From a virus (taxonomy: Duplodnaviria > Caudoviricetes): 64,000 nt of DNA. This document shows positions 6,542 to 15,454 of the stretch, piece after piece. The notes beneath the pieces are model-generated. The model was not told where the DNA came from, made no database searches, and saw only the letters and a program-made list of their open reading frames with translations. The position numbers and the translations under genes were made by a program. Position 1 is the first letter of the stretch, and every line of letters begins with the position of its first letter. The stretch lies in the IMG/VR virus record IMGVR_UViG_3300005259_000074, positions 160,001-224,000 of that record. The stretch is one strand, 5' to 3'.

Positions 6542-7642
6542 ATGTCGAACTCTGACGCTGGGTCTGTGGAAGCAGATCAACCTCCCTTGCCTAAGAATGA
6601 AAACTGCTGGAGATGGCAGTTAGCTAACAGGATAACCACAGCAGCTCAGCTGTCTGATATCATAGAACTAACCGAAGACGAACGATCTGCAATAGACCAC
6701 ACTGGTCTTCCCTTCGCGATAACTCCTTATTACGCGAAGCTGATATCAAACCCTCATATAAGAAAGTGCGTAGTGCCGAGCACTCATGAGATGACACACA
6801 GCGTCGGAGAAGACGCGGACCCACTCGGAGAAGAGTCTCACTCGAACGGCACGTGCGTAGTCCACCGGTACCCTGATCGCTGTCTGTTCATGGTGACTAA
6901 ATTCTGCTCGACGTTCTGCCGGTACTGCACTCGTTCTAGACTGGTTAGTGAAGGTGAGTGCATCTCAGATACTGACATAGAGGCAGGCATAGCTTATATC
7001 AGAGACCACGCGAAGATCAGAGATGTGATAGTGTCGGGTGGAGACCCTCTGACACTGTCTACAGATAAGTTAGACCGCATACTGACTGCGATAAGAAGCA
7101 TTTCACACGTGGAAGTCATCAGAATAGGTACTAAGGTTCCTGTGGTCCTTCCTCAGCGGATCGATCAAGAATTATGCCACATGTTAATGAAACACCACCC
7201 ACTGTTCGTTAATATACACTTCACTCACCTTGCGGAGCTGACACCTGAATGTGTTTCAGCGTGTTCTAAGCTTGCCAATTCTGGGATACCATTGGGATCT
7301 CAAACAGTGCTACTGAAAGGCGTCAACGATGATGCAACAACTATGAGACAGCTGTTTCAGGGACTGTTGAAGGCTCGGGTGATACCGCGATACTTGTACC
7401 AGTGCGACCCGGTGTTCGGTTCGTCTCACTTCCGGACTGACACGTCAGTGGGGTTAGACATCATCAGGTCTCTCAGAGGGTGGACTAGTGGGATGGCATG
7501 TCCCAGGTACGTCATTGACGCGCCTGGTGGTGGAGGAAAGATATGTCTAGAGCCGAACAGCGTGGTTGAAGACAATAGTGAAAAAATCACCATGAAGAAC
7601 TTCAGAGGAGAACTATACTCCTATCCGAAATTAGCGTCGTGA
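6542..7642 (+). CDS. kamA: KamA-family radical SAM lysine 2,3-aminomutase-like enzyme
   Basis: VHRYPDR, CSTFCRYCTR, SGGDPL, RIGTKVPVVLPQR, QTVLLKGVND, PGGGGKI (PLP Lys). Confidence 0.9.
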   Translation: MSNSDAGSVEADQPPLPKNENCWRWQLANRITTAAQLSDIIELTEDERSAIDHTGLPFAITPYYAKLISNPHIRKCVVPSTHEMTHSVGEDADPLGEESHSNGTCVVHRYPDRCLFMVTKFCSTFCRYCTRSRLVSEGECISDTDIEAGIAYIRDHAKIRDVIVSGGDPLTLSTDKLDRILTAIRSISHVEVIRIGTKVPVVLPQRIDQELCHMLMKHHPLFVNIHFTHLAELTPECVSACSKLANSGIPLGSQTVLLKGVNDDATTMRQLFQGLLKARVIPRYLYQCDPVFGSSHFRTDTSVGLDIIRSLRGWTSGMACPRYVIDAPGGGGKICLEPNSVVEDNSEKITMKNFRGELYSYPKLAS

Positions 7643-9897: not shown

Positions 9898-9969
9898 AGC
9901 CCAAAATCGGTGCCGACCCGATGACCTCGTCCTTACCAAGGACGTGCTCTACCGCTGAGCTACTTGGGC
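9898..9969 (-). tRNA. tRNA-Thr(GGT), no encoded CCA
   Basis: Cloverleaf; CGTCC-TT GGT AA-GGACG. Confidence 0.85.
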
Positions 9970-9975
9970 ATATGT

Positions 9976-10049
9976 TGGTGCGGTTAGGGAATTACGATAT
10001 CCCGATTGCTGTCTGGCAGGCAGCCGTCTTTCCTCTAGACTATAACCGC
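9976..10049 (-). tRNA. tRNA-Gly(GCC)
   Basis: GCTGC-CT GCC AG-ACAGC; CCA end. Confidence 0.85.
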
Positions 10050-10060
10050 AATGTAATTAT

Positions 10061-10453
10061 TTACCCTCTCAGGCAGCTTCCACAAGCTCCAGAAGGTTTG
10101 CAGTCTTCTGGACACCTTGTCATATCTTCTTCGTCTCTGTACTTCTCGATCATTGTCTTAGCTGTGAAGATCAACGCGCGATTTCTAGCGCCTTTCATCG
10201 TCTTGGAGTATGGAGTGACCTCTAAAAATCCTTTCCACGTGACGAATCCCCTATAAGTCTTACCCACGCTGAACACGTGGACTCTGACATCTTTCGCTGG
10301 GTCACAGTGATATCTGTTATCTCGCTCTTTCACCCACTTAGCTTTCTTGAAGACCTGCAATCGTTCTTTCACGTCGAACAGAGTTGGATGATACTTGACA
10401 TCGTCTTCTGAGAACGATATGTCTATCTTCTGCATGATCGTGAAATTGTCCAT
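10061..10453 (-). CDS. Hypothetical protein
   Basis: 130 aa ORF with a Cys-rich tail. Confidence 0.6.
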   Translation of the reverse strand: MDNFTIMQKIDISFSEDDVKYHPTLFDVKERLQVFKKAKWVKERDNRYHCDPAKDVRVHVFSVGKTYRGFVTWKGFLEVTPYSKTMKGARNRALIFTAKTMIEKYRDEEDMTRCPEDCKPSGACGSCLRG

Positions 10454-10454
10454 G

Positions 10455-10649
10455 TCATCTTCTCACTTCTGGTATTGGAAGTCCTTCTTCTCTCAGCATT
10501 TCTATCCCATCATCGATAGCTTCTTCTAGAATCTCTAGAGCTTTCACTTGGTCTCTATCAATACCCGACAGATGAGGAAAATCTTTGCACACGGCGATGA
10601 ACTCACCGTGTTCTTCGTCGTACACAATGATCTTGTTGTAGTGTGACAT
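10455..10649 (-). CDS. HicB-like antitoxin N-terminal domain only
   Basis: YDEEHGEFIAVCKDFPHLSG...ALEILEEAI...LREEGLPIP matches the HicB partial RNase H fold pattern; no DNA-binding domain. Confidence 0.75.
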   Translation of the reverse strand: MSHYNKIIVYDEEHGEFIAVCKDFPHLSGIDRDQVKALEILEEAIDDGIEMLREEGLPIPEVRR

Positions 10650-10724
10650 TGGTATCCTCTGTAGGTAACGAGCCTACGACCTTCGCGATGTGAACGCGAT
10701 GCTCTACAACTGAGCTAAGAGGAC
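10650..10724 (-). tRNA. tRNA-Val(CAC)
   Basis: TCGCG-TT CAC AT-CGCGA; CCA end. Confidence 0.85.
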
Positions 10725-10735
10725 AAGAAACTTCA

Positions 10736-11041
10736 TCATTTCCACAATTTGTACCAAGAGAACGGCTTCGGCCACTGATCGTTAGGCCTTGGACAGAACA
10801 CCAACGCAGTCTCAGCACCACCAAGTCCCGACTCGGTCATCAACACGTATTTGTCGAACTTCTTGGCGTTCTCAAATTCTCTGTCGTTGAGCTTACAGAT
10901 GCACTTCCTGAAAGACTTGTCTAGCCATAGGTCGTAGTCTGCGTCTTTCCCAGAGAACTGCCTGTCGGCCGCTAACACTCCGTGCCCGACGGCCAGCATA
11001 GCGTGTCCTATGTCGATAGACTCTCTGACCAAGATGTACAT
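10736..11041 (-). CDS. Pth2-family peptidyl-tRNA hydrolase
   Basis: MYILVR...GHAMLAVGHG...WL...FRKCICK...ESG...ETALVFCP pattern. Confidence 0.7.
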   Translation of the reverse strand: MYILVRESIDIGHAMLAVGHGVLAADRQFSGKDADYDLWLDKSFRKCICKLNDREFENAKKFDKYVLMTESGLGGAETALVFCPRPNDQWPKPFSWYKLWK

Positions 11042-11054
11042 CCTGGTGCTGCAC

Positions 11055-11240
11055 TCAGTCGAAGTCGTCGTACTCACTGTACTTGTCCATTTCTACGTCA
11101 TCTAGGAGTTCTTCGATGAGCTTCTTCTCAGACACTCGTTTTTCGTTGCGGTTCTTCATCGTCTTCTCTTGTGGGTTGACTTCCCACATTTTGCGTGTCA
11201 ATTTGTAGGACGGCGTCTTCTGGTGCTTCTTAGAGCTCAT
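11055..11240 (-). CDS. Small hypothetical protein
   Basis: 61 aa ORF. Confidence 0.55.
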   Translation of the reverse strand: MSSKKHQKTPSYKLTRKMWEVNPQEKTMKNRNEKRVSEKKLIEELLDDVEMDKYSEYDDFD

Positions 11241-11398
11241 TTCATCTTTCTCTTCTTGATAACTGTACTGCGTCTAGCTCTCTTCCAGAATTCCTCAGTG
11301 AGTTCTGGAATGTCTGAATAGTCTATTTCAGAATCTTTCATCGCCCTGAGTCTGTCGATGTCATCTTGTTTTATCTTTCGTGTAGAGCGATCTACCAT
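11237..11398 (-). CDS. BrnA-antitoxin-like N-terminal peptide (53 aa)
   Basis: Hand-translated: MVDRSTRKIKQDDIDRLRAMKDSEIDYSDIPELTEEFWKRARRSTVIKKRKMK. Confidence 0.7.
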   Translation of the reverse strand: MVDRSTRKIKQDDIDRLRAMKDSEIDYSDIPELTEEFWKRARRSTVIKKRKMK

Positions 11399-11553
11399 TC
11401 TGTGATAGTCTTTCTGAAATCTTCTTTCGGAAGATTCTTATACCTGCGAACTTTCTTCTTGCAGTAAGGACAGCGTTCTCCTTCGCTCACGAGTGCGTGA
11501 TCGCAACATGGACACCAAGAATGCCTGTATCTGTGTAAAGGGCCGCGCTTCAT
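11392..11553 (-). CDS. Small Zn-ribbon protein
   Basis: CPCC...CPYC; start moved to MKRGP so it does not overlap the tRNA. Confidence 0.6.
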   Translation of the reverse strand: MKRGPLHRYRHSWCPCCDHALVSEGERCPYCKKKVRRYKNLPKEDFRKTITEW

Positions 11554-11556
11554 AAT

Positions 11557-11631
11557 TGGTAGGAGTAGAGGAAATCGAATCCCCATAGCCGACGTGTAGA
11601 GTCGGTGCACTTACCGTTGTGCTATACTCCC
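11557..11631 (-). tRNA. tRNA-Val(TAC) with C33
   Basis: CCGAC-TC TAC AC-GTCGG; CCA end. Confidence 0.75.
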
Positions 11632-11639
11632 ATAACAAA

Positions 11640-11740
11640 GTCTAGATCGAGCAAGTTTGGAGCGGTCCGGACATTTTACTGCAGCAATCTGTCCAAACAT
11701 CCTAAAGCATCTAATTATATATTTCTTGCTCGACCTAGAC
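11640..11740 (-). ncRNA. Candidate ~100 nt structured RNA
   Basis: 16-bp terminal stem GTCTAGGTCGAGCAAG/CTTGCTCGATCTAGAC plus an internal GGACA/TGTCC hairpin. Confidence 0.5.
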
Positions 11741-11752
11741 CCATAAATCATC

Positions 11753-11887
11753 TGGTGCCTATAACCGGTCTCACGACCAGTAACCCTCCCGACTCCTCGA
11801 CTGTTGGTCTAGCAGATTTACCATGGCACTCTGCTATACTCTGTCGCACCCTCGTTCGCGTGAAAGCAATCGATTGCTTTCCTAGGC
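11753..11887 (-). ncRNA. Multi-arm tRNA-like RNA ending in ACCA
   Basis: Acceptor GCCTAGG/TATAGGC-A-CCA with a T-arm-like hairpin and extra hairpins. Confidence 0.55.
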
Positions 11888-11908
11888 TGGCGCTTGACGT
11901 ATCAAGCG
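11888..11908 (-). ncRNA. CCA-tailed microhelix
   Basis: CGCTTGA-TACG-TCAAGCG-CCA. Confidence 0.45.
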
Positions 11909-11912
11909 TAAA

Positions 11913-11986
11913 TGGTCCCTCCAGCAGATCTCGAAACTGCGTCTCGGGCTTATGAAACCCGCGTTCTTCCTGTGAACTATAGAGGG
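11913..11986 (-). tRNA. tRNA-Met/Ile2(CAT)
   Basis: CGGGT-TT CAT AA-GCCCG; CCA end. Confidence 0.8.
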
Positions 11987-11996
11987 ATAATGCACG

Positions 11997-12070
11997 TGGT
12001 ACTCCTTGAGGGTTCGAAACCTCGACCTCTTCCATGTCACGGAAGTGCTCTACAACTGAGCTAAAGGAGC
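11997..12070 (-). tRNA. tRNA-Val(GAC)
   Basis: CTTCC-GT GAC AT-GGAAG; 5' end overlaps the NADAR stop codon. Confidence 0.85.
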
Positions 12071-12501
12071 ATGAGATCGTTCTTGACTGTCCTTCTGATG
12101 TTCTTCCTTATCAGCATGATCATCTTACCTAGTACGTTCTTCCCAGTGCCTTTGCACTGGCTGCAATAACATACTCCCCAGCAGCGGTCGTGCCACGTGT
12201 TGCCTTCTTCGAGGTACTGATCGCCTGTGTCTAGCAACTTCTGCCTCAACACTGGGTCTCTGAACTTGTAGACCAGAAGTCGGTACATCACTCGGTACTT
12301 CTTGACTTCCCAGTCTGGAACCATTGAACAGACTTGACCTGCTCTCTTGGCTTGCCCTGGAGATGGGAGGTGAGCGATGTACTTCCTAGTCGAGGGACTA
12401 GATGCTTTCGCAGCTTGGTAGTAGTGCTCGATAGTCTTTCCGTTCGGGAACTTCGAAAAATTGGAGAGCCAACGAGTGTCGCCGCGAAATTCCTTGATCA
12501 T
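12061..12501 (-). CDS. NADAR (YbiA/DUF1768) family protein
   Basis: WLSNF, EHYYQAAK, M..L...KF....L...LL.TG...L.EGN.WHD..WG....GKNVLGK. Confidence 0.9.
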   Translation of the reverse strand: MIKEFRGDTRWLSNFSKFPNGKTIEHYYQAAKASSPSTRKYIAHLPSPGQAKRAGQVCSMVPDWEVKKYRVMYRLLVYKFRDPVLRQKLLDTGDQYLEEGNTWHDRCWGVCYCSQCKGTGKNVLGKMIMLIRKNIRRTVKNDLMLL

Positions 12502-12608
12502 CTCATCCTCTTCGTTTGAATTTTCCCGAGCTCCTTCGCGTCTATCCGGTCCTGGCAGGCGGCGACGTGTAGTGCCGCTCTTCGAGTCGAAGAAGGGACC
12601 CTCGAGAA

Positions 12609-12682
12609 TGGAGCACTGTGGGAATTCTGACATCCCAACTGCAACTTGGGAAGTTGCGGTCTTTCCTTTAGACTAACAGTGC
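12609..12682 (-). tRNA. tRNA-Gly(CCC)
   Basis: GCAAC-TT CCC AA-GTTGC; CCA end. Confidence 0.85.
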
Positions 12683-12685
12683 AGA

Positions 12686-12759
12686 TGGTGCGAGTAGAGA
12701 ATTCCGACATCTCGTCGCTAGTTTGGAAAACTAGGGTCCTTCCTCTGAACGATACTCGC
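12686..12759 (-). tRNA. tRNA-Gly(TCC)
   Basis: CTAGT-TT TCC AA-ACTAG; CCA end. Confidence 0.85.
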
Positions 12760-12891
12760 ATTAACACTCGGACTACTGATCCCTCTCCGGTCTCGACTAT
12801 ACGGTGACCTCGAGTGGATCCTTCATCCGAATCTGGCTCGGATAGATGTGGAGAGCGTCTATACGGTTCTTCACGTCTATTCGAAAACTTC

Positions 12892-12967
12892 TGGCGCATC
12901 CAAGGAGTGCTGACCTCCTGACCTGCGGATCGACAATCCGCTGCACTAACCGTTGTGCTATGGATGC
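12892..12967 (-). tRNA. tRNA-Asp(GTC)
   Basis: GCGGA-TT GTC GA-TCCGC; G73, CCA end. Confidence 0.85.
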
Positions 12968-12982
12968 ATGATCTAATATACT

Positions 12983-13056
12983 TGGTACTCCATAGCGGTG
13001 TTGATCCGCTTCCTCATGGCTGAGAACCATGTGGTCTACCGTTAACCTAATGGAGC
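12983..13056 (-). tRNA. tRNA-Glu(CTC)
   Basis: CATGG-TT CTC AG-CCATG; CCA end. Confidence 0.85.
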
Positions 13057-13064
13057 ATGAATTC

Positions 13065-13140
13065 TGGTGGACGCAGTGGTAATCGAAACCACATTCTCCG
13101 GGTGCAAACCGAAAGTAATAAACCGTTATACTATGCGCCC
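13065..13140 (-). tRNA. tRNA-Ala(TGC)
   Basis: TT TGC AC loop; G3.U70; CCA end. Confidence 0.88.
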
Positions 13141-13296
13141 TGTTGAATCTCTAAAGATTCATAAAGATAAATCAAACTGCCGCTCCTGTCAATGAAGACC
13201 AATTGAATCTTCACGAGAGCGATCTTCTCTCATTGCAACGCACTGAGATCTATCCGGACTACAACCGGAGTTCGATAGGCGGACGTCTCCGCTTTC

Positions 13297-13372
13297 TGGT
13301 GGATACGGGAGGTGATCGAAACCTCTCTTGCAAGATGCGAACCTGCCGTGCAGCCATCTACACTACCGACCC
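13297..13372 (-). tRNA. tRNA-Ala(CGC)
   Basis: GCAGG-TT CGC AT-CTTGC; G3.U70; bulged acceptor; CCA end. Confidence 0.8.
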
Positions 13373-13393
13373 ATAATAATGATGCATCTGACT

Positions 13394-13469
13394 TGGAGCC
13401 TACGGGCAAGGATTTGAACCGCCATCCATCGGGTACAGACCGATGATTCTACCTTTGAACTACGCAGGC
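13394..13469 (-). tRNA. tRNA-Thr(TGT) with C33
   Basis: ATCGG-TC TGT AC-CCGAT; CCA end. Confidence 0.75.
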
Positions 13470-13478
13470 ATGAAAAAC

Positions 13479-13562
13479 TGTAACAGAGGTGGAGAGTTGA
13501 ACCCACAATGCGTTTCCGCCTGGGTTATGAGCCCAGTTAGCCTACCGAGGCTCGTCTCTGTA
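13479..13562 (-). tRNA. Initiator-like tRNA-Met(CAT) with long variable arm
   Basis: TGGG-CT CAT AA-CCCA, 1:72 mismatch, GCGGAAACGC variable hairpin. Confidence 0.7.
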
Positions 13563-13565
13563 ATC

Positions 13566-13654
13566 TGGTGGAGAGGGAACGATTCGAACGTCCGACACAG
13601 AGCCCTAATTCAAACATCAGTTGGCTCCTGCTCTACCGCTGAGCTACCTACTCC
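13566..13654 (-). tRNA. Atypical tRNA with extended anticodon arm (identity unclear)
   Basis: Normal D and T arms and CCA, but 20 nt lie between the GGAGC and GCTCT stem strands. Confidence 0.65.
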
Positions 13655-13671
13655 ATTATTTCTATGAAGAG

Positions 13672-13745
13672 CTCCTGTGGCATGGCTCGAACATGCGACT
13701 TGGAGATTAACAATCTCCCGTTCATACCGACTGAACTACACAGGA
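13672..13745 (-). tRNA. tRNA-Asn(GTT), CCA-less, acceptor extended by 14 bp
   Basis: GGAGA-TT GTT AA-TCTCC; flanks 13659-13672 and 13746-13759 are complementary. Confidence 0.85.
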
Positions 13746-13761
13746 GCTCTTCATAGAAAGT

Positions 13762-13837
13762 TGGCTCACTTGGCTTGATTCGAACAAGCATGTTCAGAGT
13801 TAACAGCTCTGCCTACTGCCAATTGTAGTACAAGTGA
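13762..13837 (-). tRNA. tRNA-Asn(GTT)
   Basis: CAGAG-CT GTT AA-CTCTG; G73, CCA end. Confidence 0.88.
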
Positions 13838-13975
13838 ATAAGAAATTAGACTGGTCGCTCTTCCGCTGAGCTATCGTGTACATTCTACTTCGTTAGCTGG
13901 ACTCAGTAGAAGTAGGTCCTCCGCGTGCACTCATCAGACCACTCACGAGTCGGATTTGAACCGACGTCTTCCAGT
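13838..13975 (-). tRNA. Circularly permuted tRNA-like gene C (3' half 13975-13941, then 5' half 13880-13838)
   Basis: CCAGT/ACTGG anticodon stem and CACGA/TCGTG acceptor pair only in permuted order; canonical D and T arms. Confidence 0.7.
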
Positions 13976-13996
13976 TGATGGTGTCTCTAGGGCACC
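13976..13996 (-). ncRNA. Minihelix ending A-TCA (CCA-like)
   Basis: GGTGCCCTAGAGACACC-A-TCA; near-identical hairpin recurs at ~14590-14606. Confidence 0.4.
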
Positions 13997-14080
13997 TTAA
14001 TGAGTGCGAGTGTTCTACCATTAAACTACCAGCAAGGTATTTCACTCGCCAGCTTGGAATCGAACCAAGACCTCTCGCTT
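13997..14080 (-). tRNA. Circularly permuted tRNA-like gene B (3' half 14080-14045, then 5' half 14035-13997)
   Basis: CTCGC/GCGAG anticodon stem; TTGCTGG/CTGGCGA acceptor; G73; 9-nt linker. Confidence 0.72.
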
Positions 14081-14114
14081 TGGTGGAACGCCGCTCTTTT
14101 CATAACCGCGCCCC
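14081..14114 (-). ncRNA. 34-nt Ala-type minihelix with ACCA end
   Basis: GGGGCGC...GCGTTCC-A-CCA with G3.U70 and A73. Confidence 0.55.
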
Positions 14115-14305
14115 ATAAATGCCTCGACACATTAGCCGCTATGCTACTAGTGCCAACAAATCCACTGAAAAGCATGGTTGTGTTGCAACACAGTTCTCTC
14201 CTAGAAGAGAACGCTCGTCAGTTTCATTGAGGTGTCGAAACGCGGTTGCAATCCGCTTTACGACCTATTGCACAAGTTGGGATTTGAACCCAACTCTTCG
14301 AGGGT
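14115..14305 (-). tRNA. Circularly permuted tRNA-like gene A (3' half 14305-14269, then 5' half 14153-14115)
   Basis: TCGAGG/CCTCGA anticodon stem; GCACTAG/CTTGTGC acceptor; 115-nt structured linker. Confidence 0.72.
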
Positions 14306-14381
14306 TGGTGGTGTCGGCGGGCAATGATCCCACAACTTTCCGGGTAAGAGCCGGATACTCTGCCAATTGAGTTACGACACC
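14306..14381 (-). tRNA. tRNA-Lys(CTT)
   Basis: TCCGG-CT CTT AC-CCGGA; CCA end. Confidence 0.88.
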
Positions 14382-14388
14382 TTGAATC

Positions 14389-14512
14389 TGGTAACGGACC
14401 TACATTTAGTAGTGCCTCATGGGCTATGTTGCCCAGCGTGCTGCCCCGCCAAATGTTTCTATCCGGGGCGAGGTGACGCAGTGATGGTTCTGCGCCTTTA
14501 CACCATTCCGTA
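14389..14512 (-). ncRNA. Multi-arm tRNA-like RNA ending in ACCA
   Basis: ACGGA/TCCGT acceptor, D-arm-like 5' TGGTGTAAAGG, three internal hairpins, degenerate T arm. Confidence 0.55.
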
Positions 14513-14520
14513 ATAAACTG

Positions 14521-14588
14521 TAGCGGAGCTGGATTCGATACCAGATCACCAGGTTATGAGCCTAGTATGCTACTTACACCACCCCGCA
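14521..14588 (-). tRNA. Initiator-like tRNA-Met(CAT)
   Basis: TGCGGGG/CTCCGCT with 1:72 mismatch; CTAGG-CT CAT AA-CCTGG. Confidence 0.72.
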
Positions 14589-14940
14589 TGTTGGTGTCTC
14601 TAGGACACCATAAAGAGTCATCAGTTGACGCTCTCCGAGCGATCATCAGAGGTGGAGAAGTTTCTTAGACAGAGATGAATCTTGACGGGACCATTTGAGT
14701 TGGGTAAAAACCCACGTGAGGTCCTTCGTGGCACATGTCTGTCAGACGCCGGCTGCTCAGCAACCGACATCGCTCCTCCACCTCGGATGACCACTGGAAA
14801 GCGATCACCTGAGAATAATCCTCATTTTCAAAGAACGGTGCATGAGCTTTAGTAGCACGCATATCTCTCAGTCTGTTCAGCTAGCGACTTGCGCCTCTAG
14901 CATCTGAAAGCTCTCGCGACTCATGCTGAGTCCATTTTGT
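14589..14940 (-). ncRNA. Candidate ~350 nt structured RNA of unknown class
   Basis: TCATCCGAGGTGGAG/CTCCACCTCTGATGA long-range helix plus several local hairpins. Confidence 0.5.
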
Positions 14941-14942
14941 CT

Positions 14943-15017
14943 TGGTGCGCTCGGAGAATTTTGAAATCTCGACTCTCTGGTTAAAAGCCAGATACTCTGC
15001 CTCTGAGTTACGAGCGC
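14943..15017 (-). tRNA. tRNA-Lys(TTT)
   Basis: TCTGG-CT TTT AA-CCAGA; CCA end. Confidence 0.9.
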
Positions 15018-15055
15018 ATATTTCTAATCAGCACCTGAGACTTTCACATCTCATT

Positions 15056-15132
15056 TGGTGGGAGAACCGGGTTTCGATTCCGGATATCCTGCTCTTCAGG
15101 CAGGAGCTCTTGACCGTTTGAGCTATTCTCCC
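15056..15132 (-). tRNA. tRNA-Phe(GAA)
   Basis: CCTGC-CT GAA GA-GCAGG; CCA end. Confidence 0.88.
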
Positions 15133-15141
15133 ATAAACTTC

Positions 15142-15216
15142 TGGTATCCCGTGTCGGTATCGATCCGACTTCCCCTGGATGAAGGCCAGGCATCCTAGCC
15201 AGTAGACGAACGGGAC
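15142..15216 (-). tRNA. tRNA-Glu(TTC) with C33
   Basis: CCTGG-CC TTC AT-CCAGG; CCA end. Confidence 0.82.
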
Positions 15217-15379
15217 AAATGTGAATGAGATGTCTCGCGACATACCAGTTGCAAGCAACTGTCTCACTCATATTCAATGATCACCGGCTTCCGATCTCTC
15301 GTCCGCCTAATCCAATTATACACCACGTGGTGAAAATTGTAATAGGACTTTCGAAAAATCTTCGACCTTTCTTTCGAAC

Positions 15380-15454
15380 TGGAGCTGGTTCCCGGTGACG
15401 ATCCGAGGTCTGTGGGATACGAATCCACTGCTCTACCATTTGAGCTAAACCAGC
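15380..15454 (-). tRNA. tRNA-Thr(CGT)
   Basis: TT CGT AT loop; CCA end. Confidence 0.82.

What the first reader, a model, noticed from the sequence alone, without database searches (positions are those of the whole stretch)
14389..14512. 124-nt tRNA-like RNA with extra arms and an encoded CCA
It has an ACGGA/TCCGT acceptor with A-CCA and a D-arm-like 5' segment (TGGTGTAAAGG). Three hairpins (GCGCAG/CTGCGT, GCCCCG/CGGGGC, TGGGC/GCCCA) replace the anticodon and variable arms, and the T arm is degenerate (CTAC/GTAG). It sits in register between two tRNAs and fits no standard tRNA or tmRNA model I can recognise.
Basis: partly seen in the sequence, partly recalled or inferred. Interest (0 to 1): 0.65.

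Follow-up and report, generated by a model that had tools for sequence, protein, structure and literature searches.

The report
Initiator-tRNA look-alike with rebuilt elbow
A giant uncultured phage carries, among its tRNA genes, a conserved RNA descended from a start-codon (initiator-type) tRNA that keeps both ends of the tRNA shape but has replaced the corner with two extra hairpins, so it probably cannot read codons and more likely acts as a tRNA mimic; its job is untested.

Summary
Real, minus strand, coordinates exact. It lies in the tRNA operon of a 262-kb T4-like phage. Two syntenic homologues (91% and 77% identical) keep the fold: against the distant one, 9 of 9 changed stem pairs still pair, 5 by two-sided change. 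It is a full cloverleaf: two hairpins (50-52 nt) are inserted in the D loop, the third hairpin is the anticodon arm, and the T loop is cut to AAA. The body derives from an initiator-type tRNA(CAU): 1·72 mismatch, C3-G70, G4-C69, A73, GGG anticodon stem; the closest relatives are the adjacent tRNA(CAU) and an un-inserted phage initiator. A purine at 33, a 7/8-nt loop and CAU/UAU variation argue against decoding. Best guess (0.4): a non-decoding initiator mimic acting as decoy for tRNA-targeting host enzymes. No Rfam family or paper found. This scan earlier found a double-hairpin D loop in Caulobacter/Brevundimonas phages; I confirmed that RNA exists but found no homology, so the design probably arose twice. 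New variant of the T4 RNA C/D kind.

The parts
14389..14512 (-). Whole tRNA-like RNA gene, 124 nt (homologues L192:2607-2730 +, 124 nt; L049:3549-3670 -, 122 nt)
14506..14512 (-). Acceptor stem 5' strand (positions 1-7); U1·U72 and A7·G66 mismatches in all three copies, pairs 2-6 kept
   Evidence: pair 2 A-U to G-C two-sided
14500..14503 (-). D stem 5' strand (10-13), after U8 G9
   Evidence: invariant, so no covariation
14475..14496 (-). Inserted hairpin H1 in the D loop, 7 bp; its first two pairs use the old D-loop G18 G19; loop variable
   Evidence: 2 two-sided, 1 one-sided change; pair probabilities 0.99-1.0 for 6 of 7 pairs in the window
14444..14473 (-). Inserted hairpin H2 in the D loop; conserved 5-7 bp basal stem, variable distal part
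   Evidence: C-G to A-U, U-G to U-A
14438..14443 (-). Rest of D loop (C20 A21) and D stem 3' strand (22-25); G26 at 14437
14419..14436 (-). Anticodon arm: G29 G30 G31 invariant; loop 8 nt here, 7 nt in both homologues; triplet CAU (window, L192) or UAU (L049), then A; purine at 33; C32-G38 can pair
14413..14418 (-). Variable region, 6 nt
14400..14412 (-). Reduced T arm: 4 bp, U53·U61, loop cut to AAA
   Evidence: A-U to G-C two-sided; neighbour tRNA has the same 4 bp + U·U frame with a 6-nt loop
14389..14399 (-). Acceptor 3' strand, discriminator A73 (14392), encoded CCA (14389-14391)
14518..14588 (-). Upstream tRNA(CAU) with U1·U72 and the same D-stem start: closest relative in the genome, probable sister by tandem duplication
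   Evidence: (E 7.6e-5)
14306..14381 (-). Downstream tRNA-Lys(CUU), same position in all three phages
15315..15343 (-). Sigma-70-type promoter-like site (10/12), about 800 nt upstream in all three phages; probable operon promoter

Best explanation
It is a non-decoding mimic of an initiator-type tRNA. Shown by sequence comparison: a tRNA(CAU) gene gained a two-hairpin domain in its D loop, lost the T-loop bases that dock on G18/G19, and had G18/G19 drawn into the first hairpin, so both halves of the elbow contact are gone while the acceptor end and anticodon arm are kept under selection. Inferred: it is transcribed with the tRNA operon and cut out by host tRNA-processing enzymes, helped by the flanking tRNAs, with its CCA kept up by the phage's or host's CCA enzyme. 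Inferred: it does not work on the ribosome. Guessed (least sure step): it presents the two ends of an initiator-like L shape to host enzymes that read those ends, most plausibly tRNA-attacking toxins or defence nucleases of the VapC (anticodon arm) or AtaT (acceptor stem) kind, and soaks them up, while the rebuilt elbow keeps it out of translation. My odds per step: structure about 0.9, non-decoding about 0.8, decoy role about 0.4.
For: Three syntenic copies. Window against L049: 9 changed stem pairs, all still paired, 5 two-sided; 77% identity while both flanking tRNAs are only 53% identical. 95.8% of cells paired against 30-45% in slid controls. RNAalifold returns the D stem and both D-loop hairpins unprompted. 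Ancestry: a model of the RNA ranks the upstream tRNA(CAU) next, and an intact viral initiator-type tRNA(CAU) (L008:3624-3710) has the un-inserted D arm and 25-27 of 30 identical 5' bases, 16 of them by construction. Formylation identity elements (unpaired 1·72, A73, C3-G70, G4-C69; PMC9976931) are in all copies, G2-C71 in one; G30 of the 3GC set (PMC5389676) is invariant. Against decoding: purine 33 (53 of 62 called tRNAs of these phages have U33), loop 8 nt in one copy, C34/U34 variation, no T loop. VapC cleaves tRNAfMet in the anticodon stem-loop (PMC7180214); AtaT reads its acceptor stem (PMC7595197). The phage encodes a CCA enzyme, RtcB and two RNA ligases, consistent with a host that attacks tRNA.
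Against: No expression, end-mapping, charging or binding data. Only three copies, two of them close. The D stem never varies, and single-sequence folding gives it pair probability 0.01-0.04; the cloverleaf is 1.5-4.7 kcal/mol above each sequence's own minimum. The anticodon stem is the least clean helix (80% paired). The host and its toxins are unknown. A decoy for an anticodon nuclease might be expected to keep a more faithful anticodon loop. The decoy idea does not explain why a 50-nt domain is needed rather than a simple T-loop loss.
Confidence: 0.4

Rival explanations
1. Chassis model: the tRNA body only gives processing and stability, and the two-hairpin domain is the working part that binds a phage or host protein.
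For: Insert length is held at 50-52 nt with covarying stems and near-invariant basal pairs. The same D-loop position carries two hairpins in an unrelated phage family, which suggests a favoured display site.
Against: Loops and distal H2 vary in sequence and length. No complementarity between the tips beyond 3-4 nt, unlike the palindromic tips of the Brevundimonas RNA. No Ro60. Initiator identity elements are kept without being needed for this role.
Confidence: 0.27
2. A working, specialised initiator tRNA whose rebuilt elbow hides it from host defences; it is charged with Met, formylated and used in the P site.
For: 1·72 mismatch, A73, CCA, GGG anticodon strand, CAU-A in 2 of 3 copies. This phage's ordinary tRNAs also have non-standard T loops.
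Against: Purine 33, 8-nt loop in the window, UAU in L049 (C34 is a MetRS determinant, PMC9976931), C32-G38, U11-A24 instead of R11-Y24, no T loop, and a 50-nt bulk at the elbow. The phage already has three other CAU tRNA genes.
Confidence: 0.12
3. A punctuation element: a tRNA-shaped spacer whose only role is to direct RNase P / 3' trimming of the polycistronic precursor.
For: It sits in register between two tRNAs with acceptor and CCA kept. CCA-tailed minihelices seem to punctuate the same operon.
Against: Both neighbours are tRNAs that carry their own signals. A minihelix would do; the conserved D stem, insert and anticodon arm would be superfluous.
Confidence: 0.1
4. A pre-tRNA with a D-loop intron that is cut out and sealed by the phage's RtcB or RNA ligases.
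For: Removing the insert restores a normal 7-nt D loop identical to that of L008's tRNA. RtcB and two ligases are encoded.
Against: The spliced core still lacks the T loop and U33, and ARAGORN calls nothing at thresholds 100-85 or in mitochondrial mode. No splicing endonuclease in the genome. No bulge-helix-bulge seen by eye at the junctions. H1 uses the exon's G18 G19.
Confidence: 0.04
5. A decaying tRNA pseudogene with a chance insertion.
For: Anticodon loop and T loop are broken by tRNA standards.
Against: 9 of 9 stem changes keep pairing, 5 two-sided; it is kept where both neighbouring tRNAs diverged to 53%.
Confidence: 0.03

Closest known systems
Phage T4 species 1 and 2 RNAs (rnaC 139 nt, rnaD 119 nt; NC_000866)
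   Same: Oversized RNAs of unknown function (PMC9697503) made from the phage tRNA-cluster transcript (PMC2330249); similar size; tRNA-type 3' ends.
   Different: No match with model R1. rnaC keeps a canonical T arm and folds into other long hairpins; neither shows an initiator-like body or a two-hairpin D loop.
Bacterial initiator tRNA-fMet and phage initiator-type tRNA(CAU) (Rfam RF00005; e.g. L008:3624-3710 and window 14518-14588)
   Same: U8 G9, 1·72 mismatch, C3-G70, G4-C69, A73, CCA, G29-G31, A35 U36 A37; near-identical 5' part once the insert is removed.
   Different: 50-52-nt D-loop insert, G18/G19 paired, T loop reduced to 3 nt, purine 33, G38, loop of 7 or 8 nt, C34 not fixed, U11-A24.
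Double-hairpin D-loop tRNA-like RNA of Dolichocephalovirinae (Kikimora, Marchewka, Kabachok, CcrColossus, CcrPW); unannotated in GenBank, noted earlier by this scan, not found in papers
   Same: 119-126 nt cloverleaf, two tandem hairpins between the D-loop GG and the D-stem 3' strand, GGG/CCC anticodon stem, no U33, variable anticodon, encoded CCA.
   Different: Keeps a canonical T loop, paired 1-72, U73 and another D stem; tips palindromic in Kikimora. Cross-searches find no homology either way.
YrlA-type Y RNAs (Rfam RF02553)
   Same: Non-decoding tRNA mimic found in phage tRNA clusters (own knowledge).
   Different: YrlA is permuted, keeps the D/T elbow and pairs with Ro60 (own knowledge). 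This RNA is colinear, ends in CCA, has lost the elbow, has no YrlA hit, and the genome has no TROVE.

Membership tests
Canonical tRNA (RF00005) | Cloverleaf order: acceptor, D, anticodon, variable, T, NCCA | tested here: met
Canonical tRNA (RF00005) | 7-nt T loop with U54-U55-C56 and free G18 G19 for the elbow | tested here: not met
   T loop is 3 nt; G18 G19 pair in H1 in all copies
Canonical tRNA (RF00005) | 7-nt anticodon loop with U33 and a fixed anticodon | tested here: not met
   A33/A33/G33; 8, 7, 7 nt; CAU/CAU/UAU
Canonical tRNA (RF00005) | Score over the Rfam cut-off or ARAGORN call | tested here: not met
   insert-free core also not called
Canonical tRNA (RF00005) | Aminoacylation and use on the ribosome | not testable with these tools
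   needs biochemistry
Bacterial initiator tRNA-fMet | Unpaired 1·72, A73, C3-G70, G4-C69 | tested here: met
   all three copies; elements from PMC9976931
Bacterial initiator tRNA-fMet | Three G-C pairs in the anticodon stem | tested here: inconclusive
   GGG invariant; 3 G-C in the window, one G·U in each homologue, at 30-40 in L049
Bacterial initiator tRNA-fMet | R11-Y24 pair and invariant CAU | tested here: not met
   U11-A24; UAU in L049
T4 RNA C/D-type phage stable RNAs | Non-coding, tRNA-ended RNA gene inside a phage tRNA operon | tested here: met
T4 RNA C/D-type phage stable RNAs | Sequence or structure homology to rnaC or rnaD | tested here: not met
T4 RNA C/D-type phage stable RNAs | Accumulates as a stable processed RNA in infection | not testable with these tools
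YrlA / Y RNA | Permuted tRNA-like module and Ro60 partner | tested here: not met
   colinear cloverleaf; no TROVE in a 97% complete genome
tmRNA | G3·U70 acceptor, no D stem, tag reading frame | tested here: not met
   C3-G70, D stem present, no ARAGORN or Rfam call
Intron-containing tRNA (BHB type) | Splicing endonuclease and a canonical tRNA after excision | tested here: not met
Dolichocephalovirinae double-hairpin D-loop RNA | Two hairpins inserted in the D loop | tested here: met
Dolichocephalovirinae double-hairpin D-loop RNA | Complementary or palindromic tips, intact T loop, detectable homology | tested here: not met

The most novel reading that the evidence does not exclude
Unrelated jumbo phages have independently converted tRNAs into elbow-replaced mimics by putting a two-hairpin domain in the D loop. 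This copy is an initiator-specific version that can be charged or attacked like tRNA-fMet but cannot enter the ribosome, and so works as an RNA anti-toxin or as a tool to control the host's initiation machinery.
Probability: 0.25. Interest if true: 0.8.

Novelty: new variant of a known kind. Interest (0 to 1): 0.52.

Why it matters
Phage tRNA clusters have been known since T4 RNA C and D to encode tRNA-like RNAs with no assigned job. This one has a traceable ancestor and a clean, matched lesion (D-loop GG sequestered, T-loop docking bases deleted, new domain added), so it gives a sharp test of whether such RNAs are decoys for tRNA-targeting defences or scaffolds. A second, apparently independent origin of the double-hairpin D loop suggests a recurring RNA design that tRNA finders and Rfam miss. 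The limits are real: three copies, an uncultured phage, an unknown host and no expression data.

Tried and rejected
Plus-strand reading: weak fold, and all neighbours are on the minus strand. Alternative D stem closing on the bases just after H1 (the window's own minimum-energy fold): worse than the cloverleaf in all three when constrained as I set it and leaves a conserved 9-nt stretch unexplained. Kissing between H1 and H2 tips, or tips with the anticodon loop: at most 3-4 nt, not conserved. Homology with the Kikimora RNA, suggested by matching basal stem sequences: those sequences are not kept within Kikimora's own family, and models R1 and R2 do not cross-detect; taken as coincidence. More homologues: none in IMG/VR pattern scans (103/107, 130/132), the JGI metagenome scan (47/51), GTDB genomes (123/127), GenBank phages (10, 84), five distant phage records (57), or contigs of more distant protein relatives (44, 119-122, 126). 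These are exact-pattern or low-information searches, so diverged relatives could be missed. Rfam at E up to 10: only noise. The host could not be identified; the nearest cultured phages are only about 31% identical in DNA polymerase.

Full report
Setting. The window is part of a 262,470-bp virus record, 97% complete, with T4-like replication genes and no close cultured relative (DNA polymerase about 31% identical at best). A minus-strand tRNA operon spans about 9.9-15.5 kb of the window. The finding lies on the minus strand, 5 nt downstream of a tRNA(CAU) gene that only Rfam calls (14518-14588) and 7 nt upstream of tRNA-Lys(CUU). A promoter-like site (10/12 match) lies about 800 nt upstream in this phage and both relatives. 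Neither ARAGORN nor Rfam calls the element, and no ORF over 48 aa overlaps it.

Homologues. Following neighbouring proteins gave two related phage contigs that hold the cluster: L049 (ENA, about 77% identical across the cluster) and L192 (JGI). Each has one copy at the same place, between a tRNA(CAU) and tRNA-Lys(CUU): 124 nt at 91% and 122 nt at 77% identity. In L049 both flanking tRNAs are only 53% identical to the window's, so the element is better kept than its neighbours. All wider searches found no further copy (see Tried and rejected).

Structure. The homologues give another parse, which I wrote down after the first homologue (note) and which RNAalifold then returned without constraints: 7-position acceptor, U8 G9, 4-bp D stem, three A, hairpin H1 (7 bp), hairpin H2 (5-7 bp basal stem), C20 A21, D-stem 3' strand, G26, 5-position anticodon stem, 6-nt variable region, 4-bp T stem with U53·U61 and a 3-nt loop, acceptor, A73, CCA. 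On this structure 95.8% of cells pair, against 30-45% for slid controls, with 4 two-sided changes in the MAFFT alignment (8 of 500 shuffles as high, which is not a probability) and 5 after hand registration of H2. Window against L049 gives 9 changed pairs, all still paired. Caveats: the D stem is invariant, single-sequence folding gives it low probability, and the cloverleaf lies 1.5-4.7 kcal/mol above each sequence's own minimum; those minima disagree with one another, and the main alternative D pairing scores worse in all three. The D stem therefore rests on consensus folding, spacing and ancestry, not on covariation.

Ancestry. A covariance model of the three copies ranks the upstream tRNA(CAU) and its L192 orthologue next (26.5 and 30.9 bits), and the insert-free core aligns best to that neighbour among 37 tRNA calls in the genome. 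The neighbour shares U1·U72, the D-stem start and a 4-bp T stem with U53·U61, but has a 6-nt T loop; our RNA lacks the three middle bases of that loop. An unrelated viral contig (L008) holds an intact tRNA(CAU) with a G1·A72 mismatch, three G-C anticodon pairs and exactly the 7-nt D loop obtained by removing our insert; 25-27 of the first 30 bases match, 16 of them because the locus was found by that word. So the gene most likely arose by duplication of an initiator-type tRNA(CAU), insertion of 50-52 nt after G19, and loss of the T-loop core (inference). Formylation identity elements named in PMC9976931 (unpaired 1·72, A73, C3-G70, G4-C69) are in all copies; G30, the key base of the 3GC set (PMC5389676), is invariant.

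What is lost. In normal tRNA G18 and G19 dock on T-loop positions 55 and 56 to make the elbow that the ribosome and RNase P grip (own knowledge). Here both partners are removed together: G18 G19 form the base of H1 and the T loop is three A. The anticodon loop has a purine at 33, a possible C32-G38 pair, 8 nt in the window and 7 in the homologues, and reads CAU or UAU. Of 62 called tRNAs in these three phages 53 have U33 (a few of the rest are mis-registered, a few are real deviants). These changes make decoding unlikely but do not exclude it, because this phage's tRNAs are generally odd in the T loop.

Mechanism. The RNA keeps the two ends of the L shape and swaps the corner. The ends are what synthetases, the formyltransferase and tRNA-attacking toxins read: VapC toxins cut tRNAfMet in the anticodon stem-loop (PMC7180214) and AtaT selects by the acceptor stem (PMC7595197). 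The genome encodes a CCA-adding-type nucleotidyltransferase, RtcB and two RNA ligases, which fits a host that damages tRNA. I therefore favour a non-decoding initiator mimic that acts as a decoy (0.4), ahead of a chassis that displays the hairpins to a protein (0.27), a working specialised initiator (0.12), a processing signal (0.1), an intron-containing tRNA (0.04; no endonuclease; the core is still not a tRNA) and a pseudogene (0.03). Only the structure and ancestry are shown; processing, non-decoding and the decoy role are inferred.

Comparison with known RNAs. It works like, at best, the tRNA-like RNAs of phage tRNA clusters: T4 RNA C and D are co-transcribed with the tRNAs (PMC2330249) and still of unknown function (PMC9697503), but they show no homology to this RNA. 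It is not YrlA (colinear; no TROVE) and not tmRNA. Earlier notes of this scan described a double-hairpin D-loop RNA in Caulobacter and Brevundimonas jumbo phages. I located it myself in Kikimora, Marchewka, Kabachok, CcrColossus and CcrPW, unannotated. It has the same insertion site and a GGG/CCC anticodon stem without U33, but keeps a canonical T loop, a paired 1-72 and U73, and in Kikimora has palindromic tips, whereas our tips are not complementary. Neither family's model detects the other, and a tempting match of basal stem sequences to Kikimora is not kept in that family. I read this as convergence, with remote homology not excluded. No paper on such RNAs was found.

Verdict. A real, conserved, unannotated phage RNA gene; a new variant of a known but unexplained kind.

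Noticed in passing
window 13838-14305 (-): Three tRNA-like units with the 3' half upstream of the 5' half and no proper anticodon loop, separated by CCA-type minihelices; related units in L049 and L192. Seen by eye; already reported by the scan.
   Followed up: no
window 14589-14942 (-): About 350 nt of non-coding, strongly paired sequence between tRNA-Lys(UUU) and the tRNA(CAU), conserved in L049 and L192, no Rfam hit.
   Followed up: no
window 13482-13561 (-): Another CAU tRNA-like gene with a GGG/CCC anticodon stem, short D arm and long variable region; 98% and 96% identical in the two relatives, the most conserved RNA compared.
   Followed up: partly
window 9898-15454 (-): Many tRNAs have rewritten T loops (A or G in place of U54, U53·U61). 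T4 SegB recognises the T-loop motif in tRNA genes (PMC2330249), and L049 carries a DUF559 endonuclease-like gene inserted just after tRNA-Lys, so escape from a homing endonuclease is one possible cause.
   Followed up: no
L324:1129-1207 and L324:1547-1628 (-) (G000 C1 about 254.1 and 254.6 kb): Two CCA-ended tRNA-like genes in the genome's second cluster that seem to lack a D arm and carry extra sequence after the anticodon arm (UAU- and UCU-type loops); not called by ARAGORN.
   Followed up: no
G000 C1 1418-2773, 24879-27076, 246853-247479: tRNA nucleotidyltransferase-type gene, RtcB and two RNA ligases: a full RNA end-repair set.
   Followed up: partly
window 6542-7642 (+) and 12061-12501 (-): Lysine-2,3-aminomutase-like radical SAM gene beside the cluster and a NADAR gene inside it.
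   Followed up: no
window 10736-11077 (-): 113-aa protein inside the tRNA cluster with no Pfam hit but 346 relatives at E up to 0.001; by eye it recalls Pth2-type peptidyl-tRNA hydrolases, untested.
   Followed up: partly
whole genome: ARAGORN finds 29 tRNAs but none for Leu, Ser, Tyr, Trp: no long-variable-arm class II tRNA is called.
   Followed up: no
L008:3624-3710 (+): Viral initiator-type tRNA(CAU) with an unusually long variable region (17 nt).
   Followed up: partly
L325:3160-3400 (-) and L326:4970-5210 (-): About 210-nt unannotated tRNA-shaped RNA (acceptor, T arm, CCA) between tRNA-Ser genes of Brevundimonas phages Kikimora and Marchewka.
   Followed up: no
L316 (CcrColossus about 108.5-109.6 kb, -): Run of tRNA-like units with long paired inserts and a shared motif, scoring under the Rfam cut-off.
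   Followed up: no
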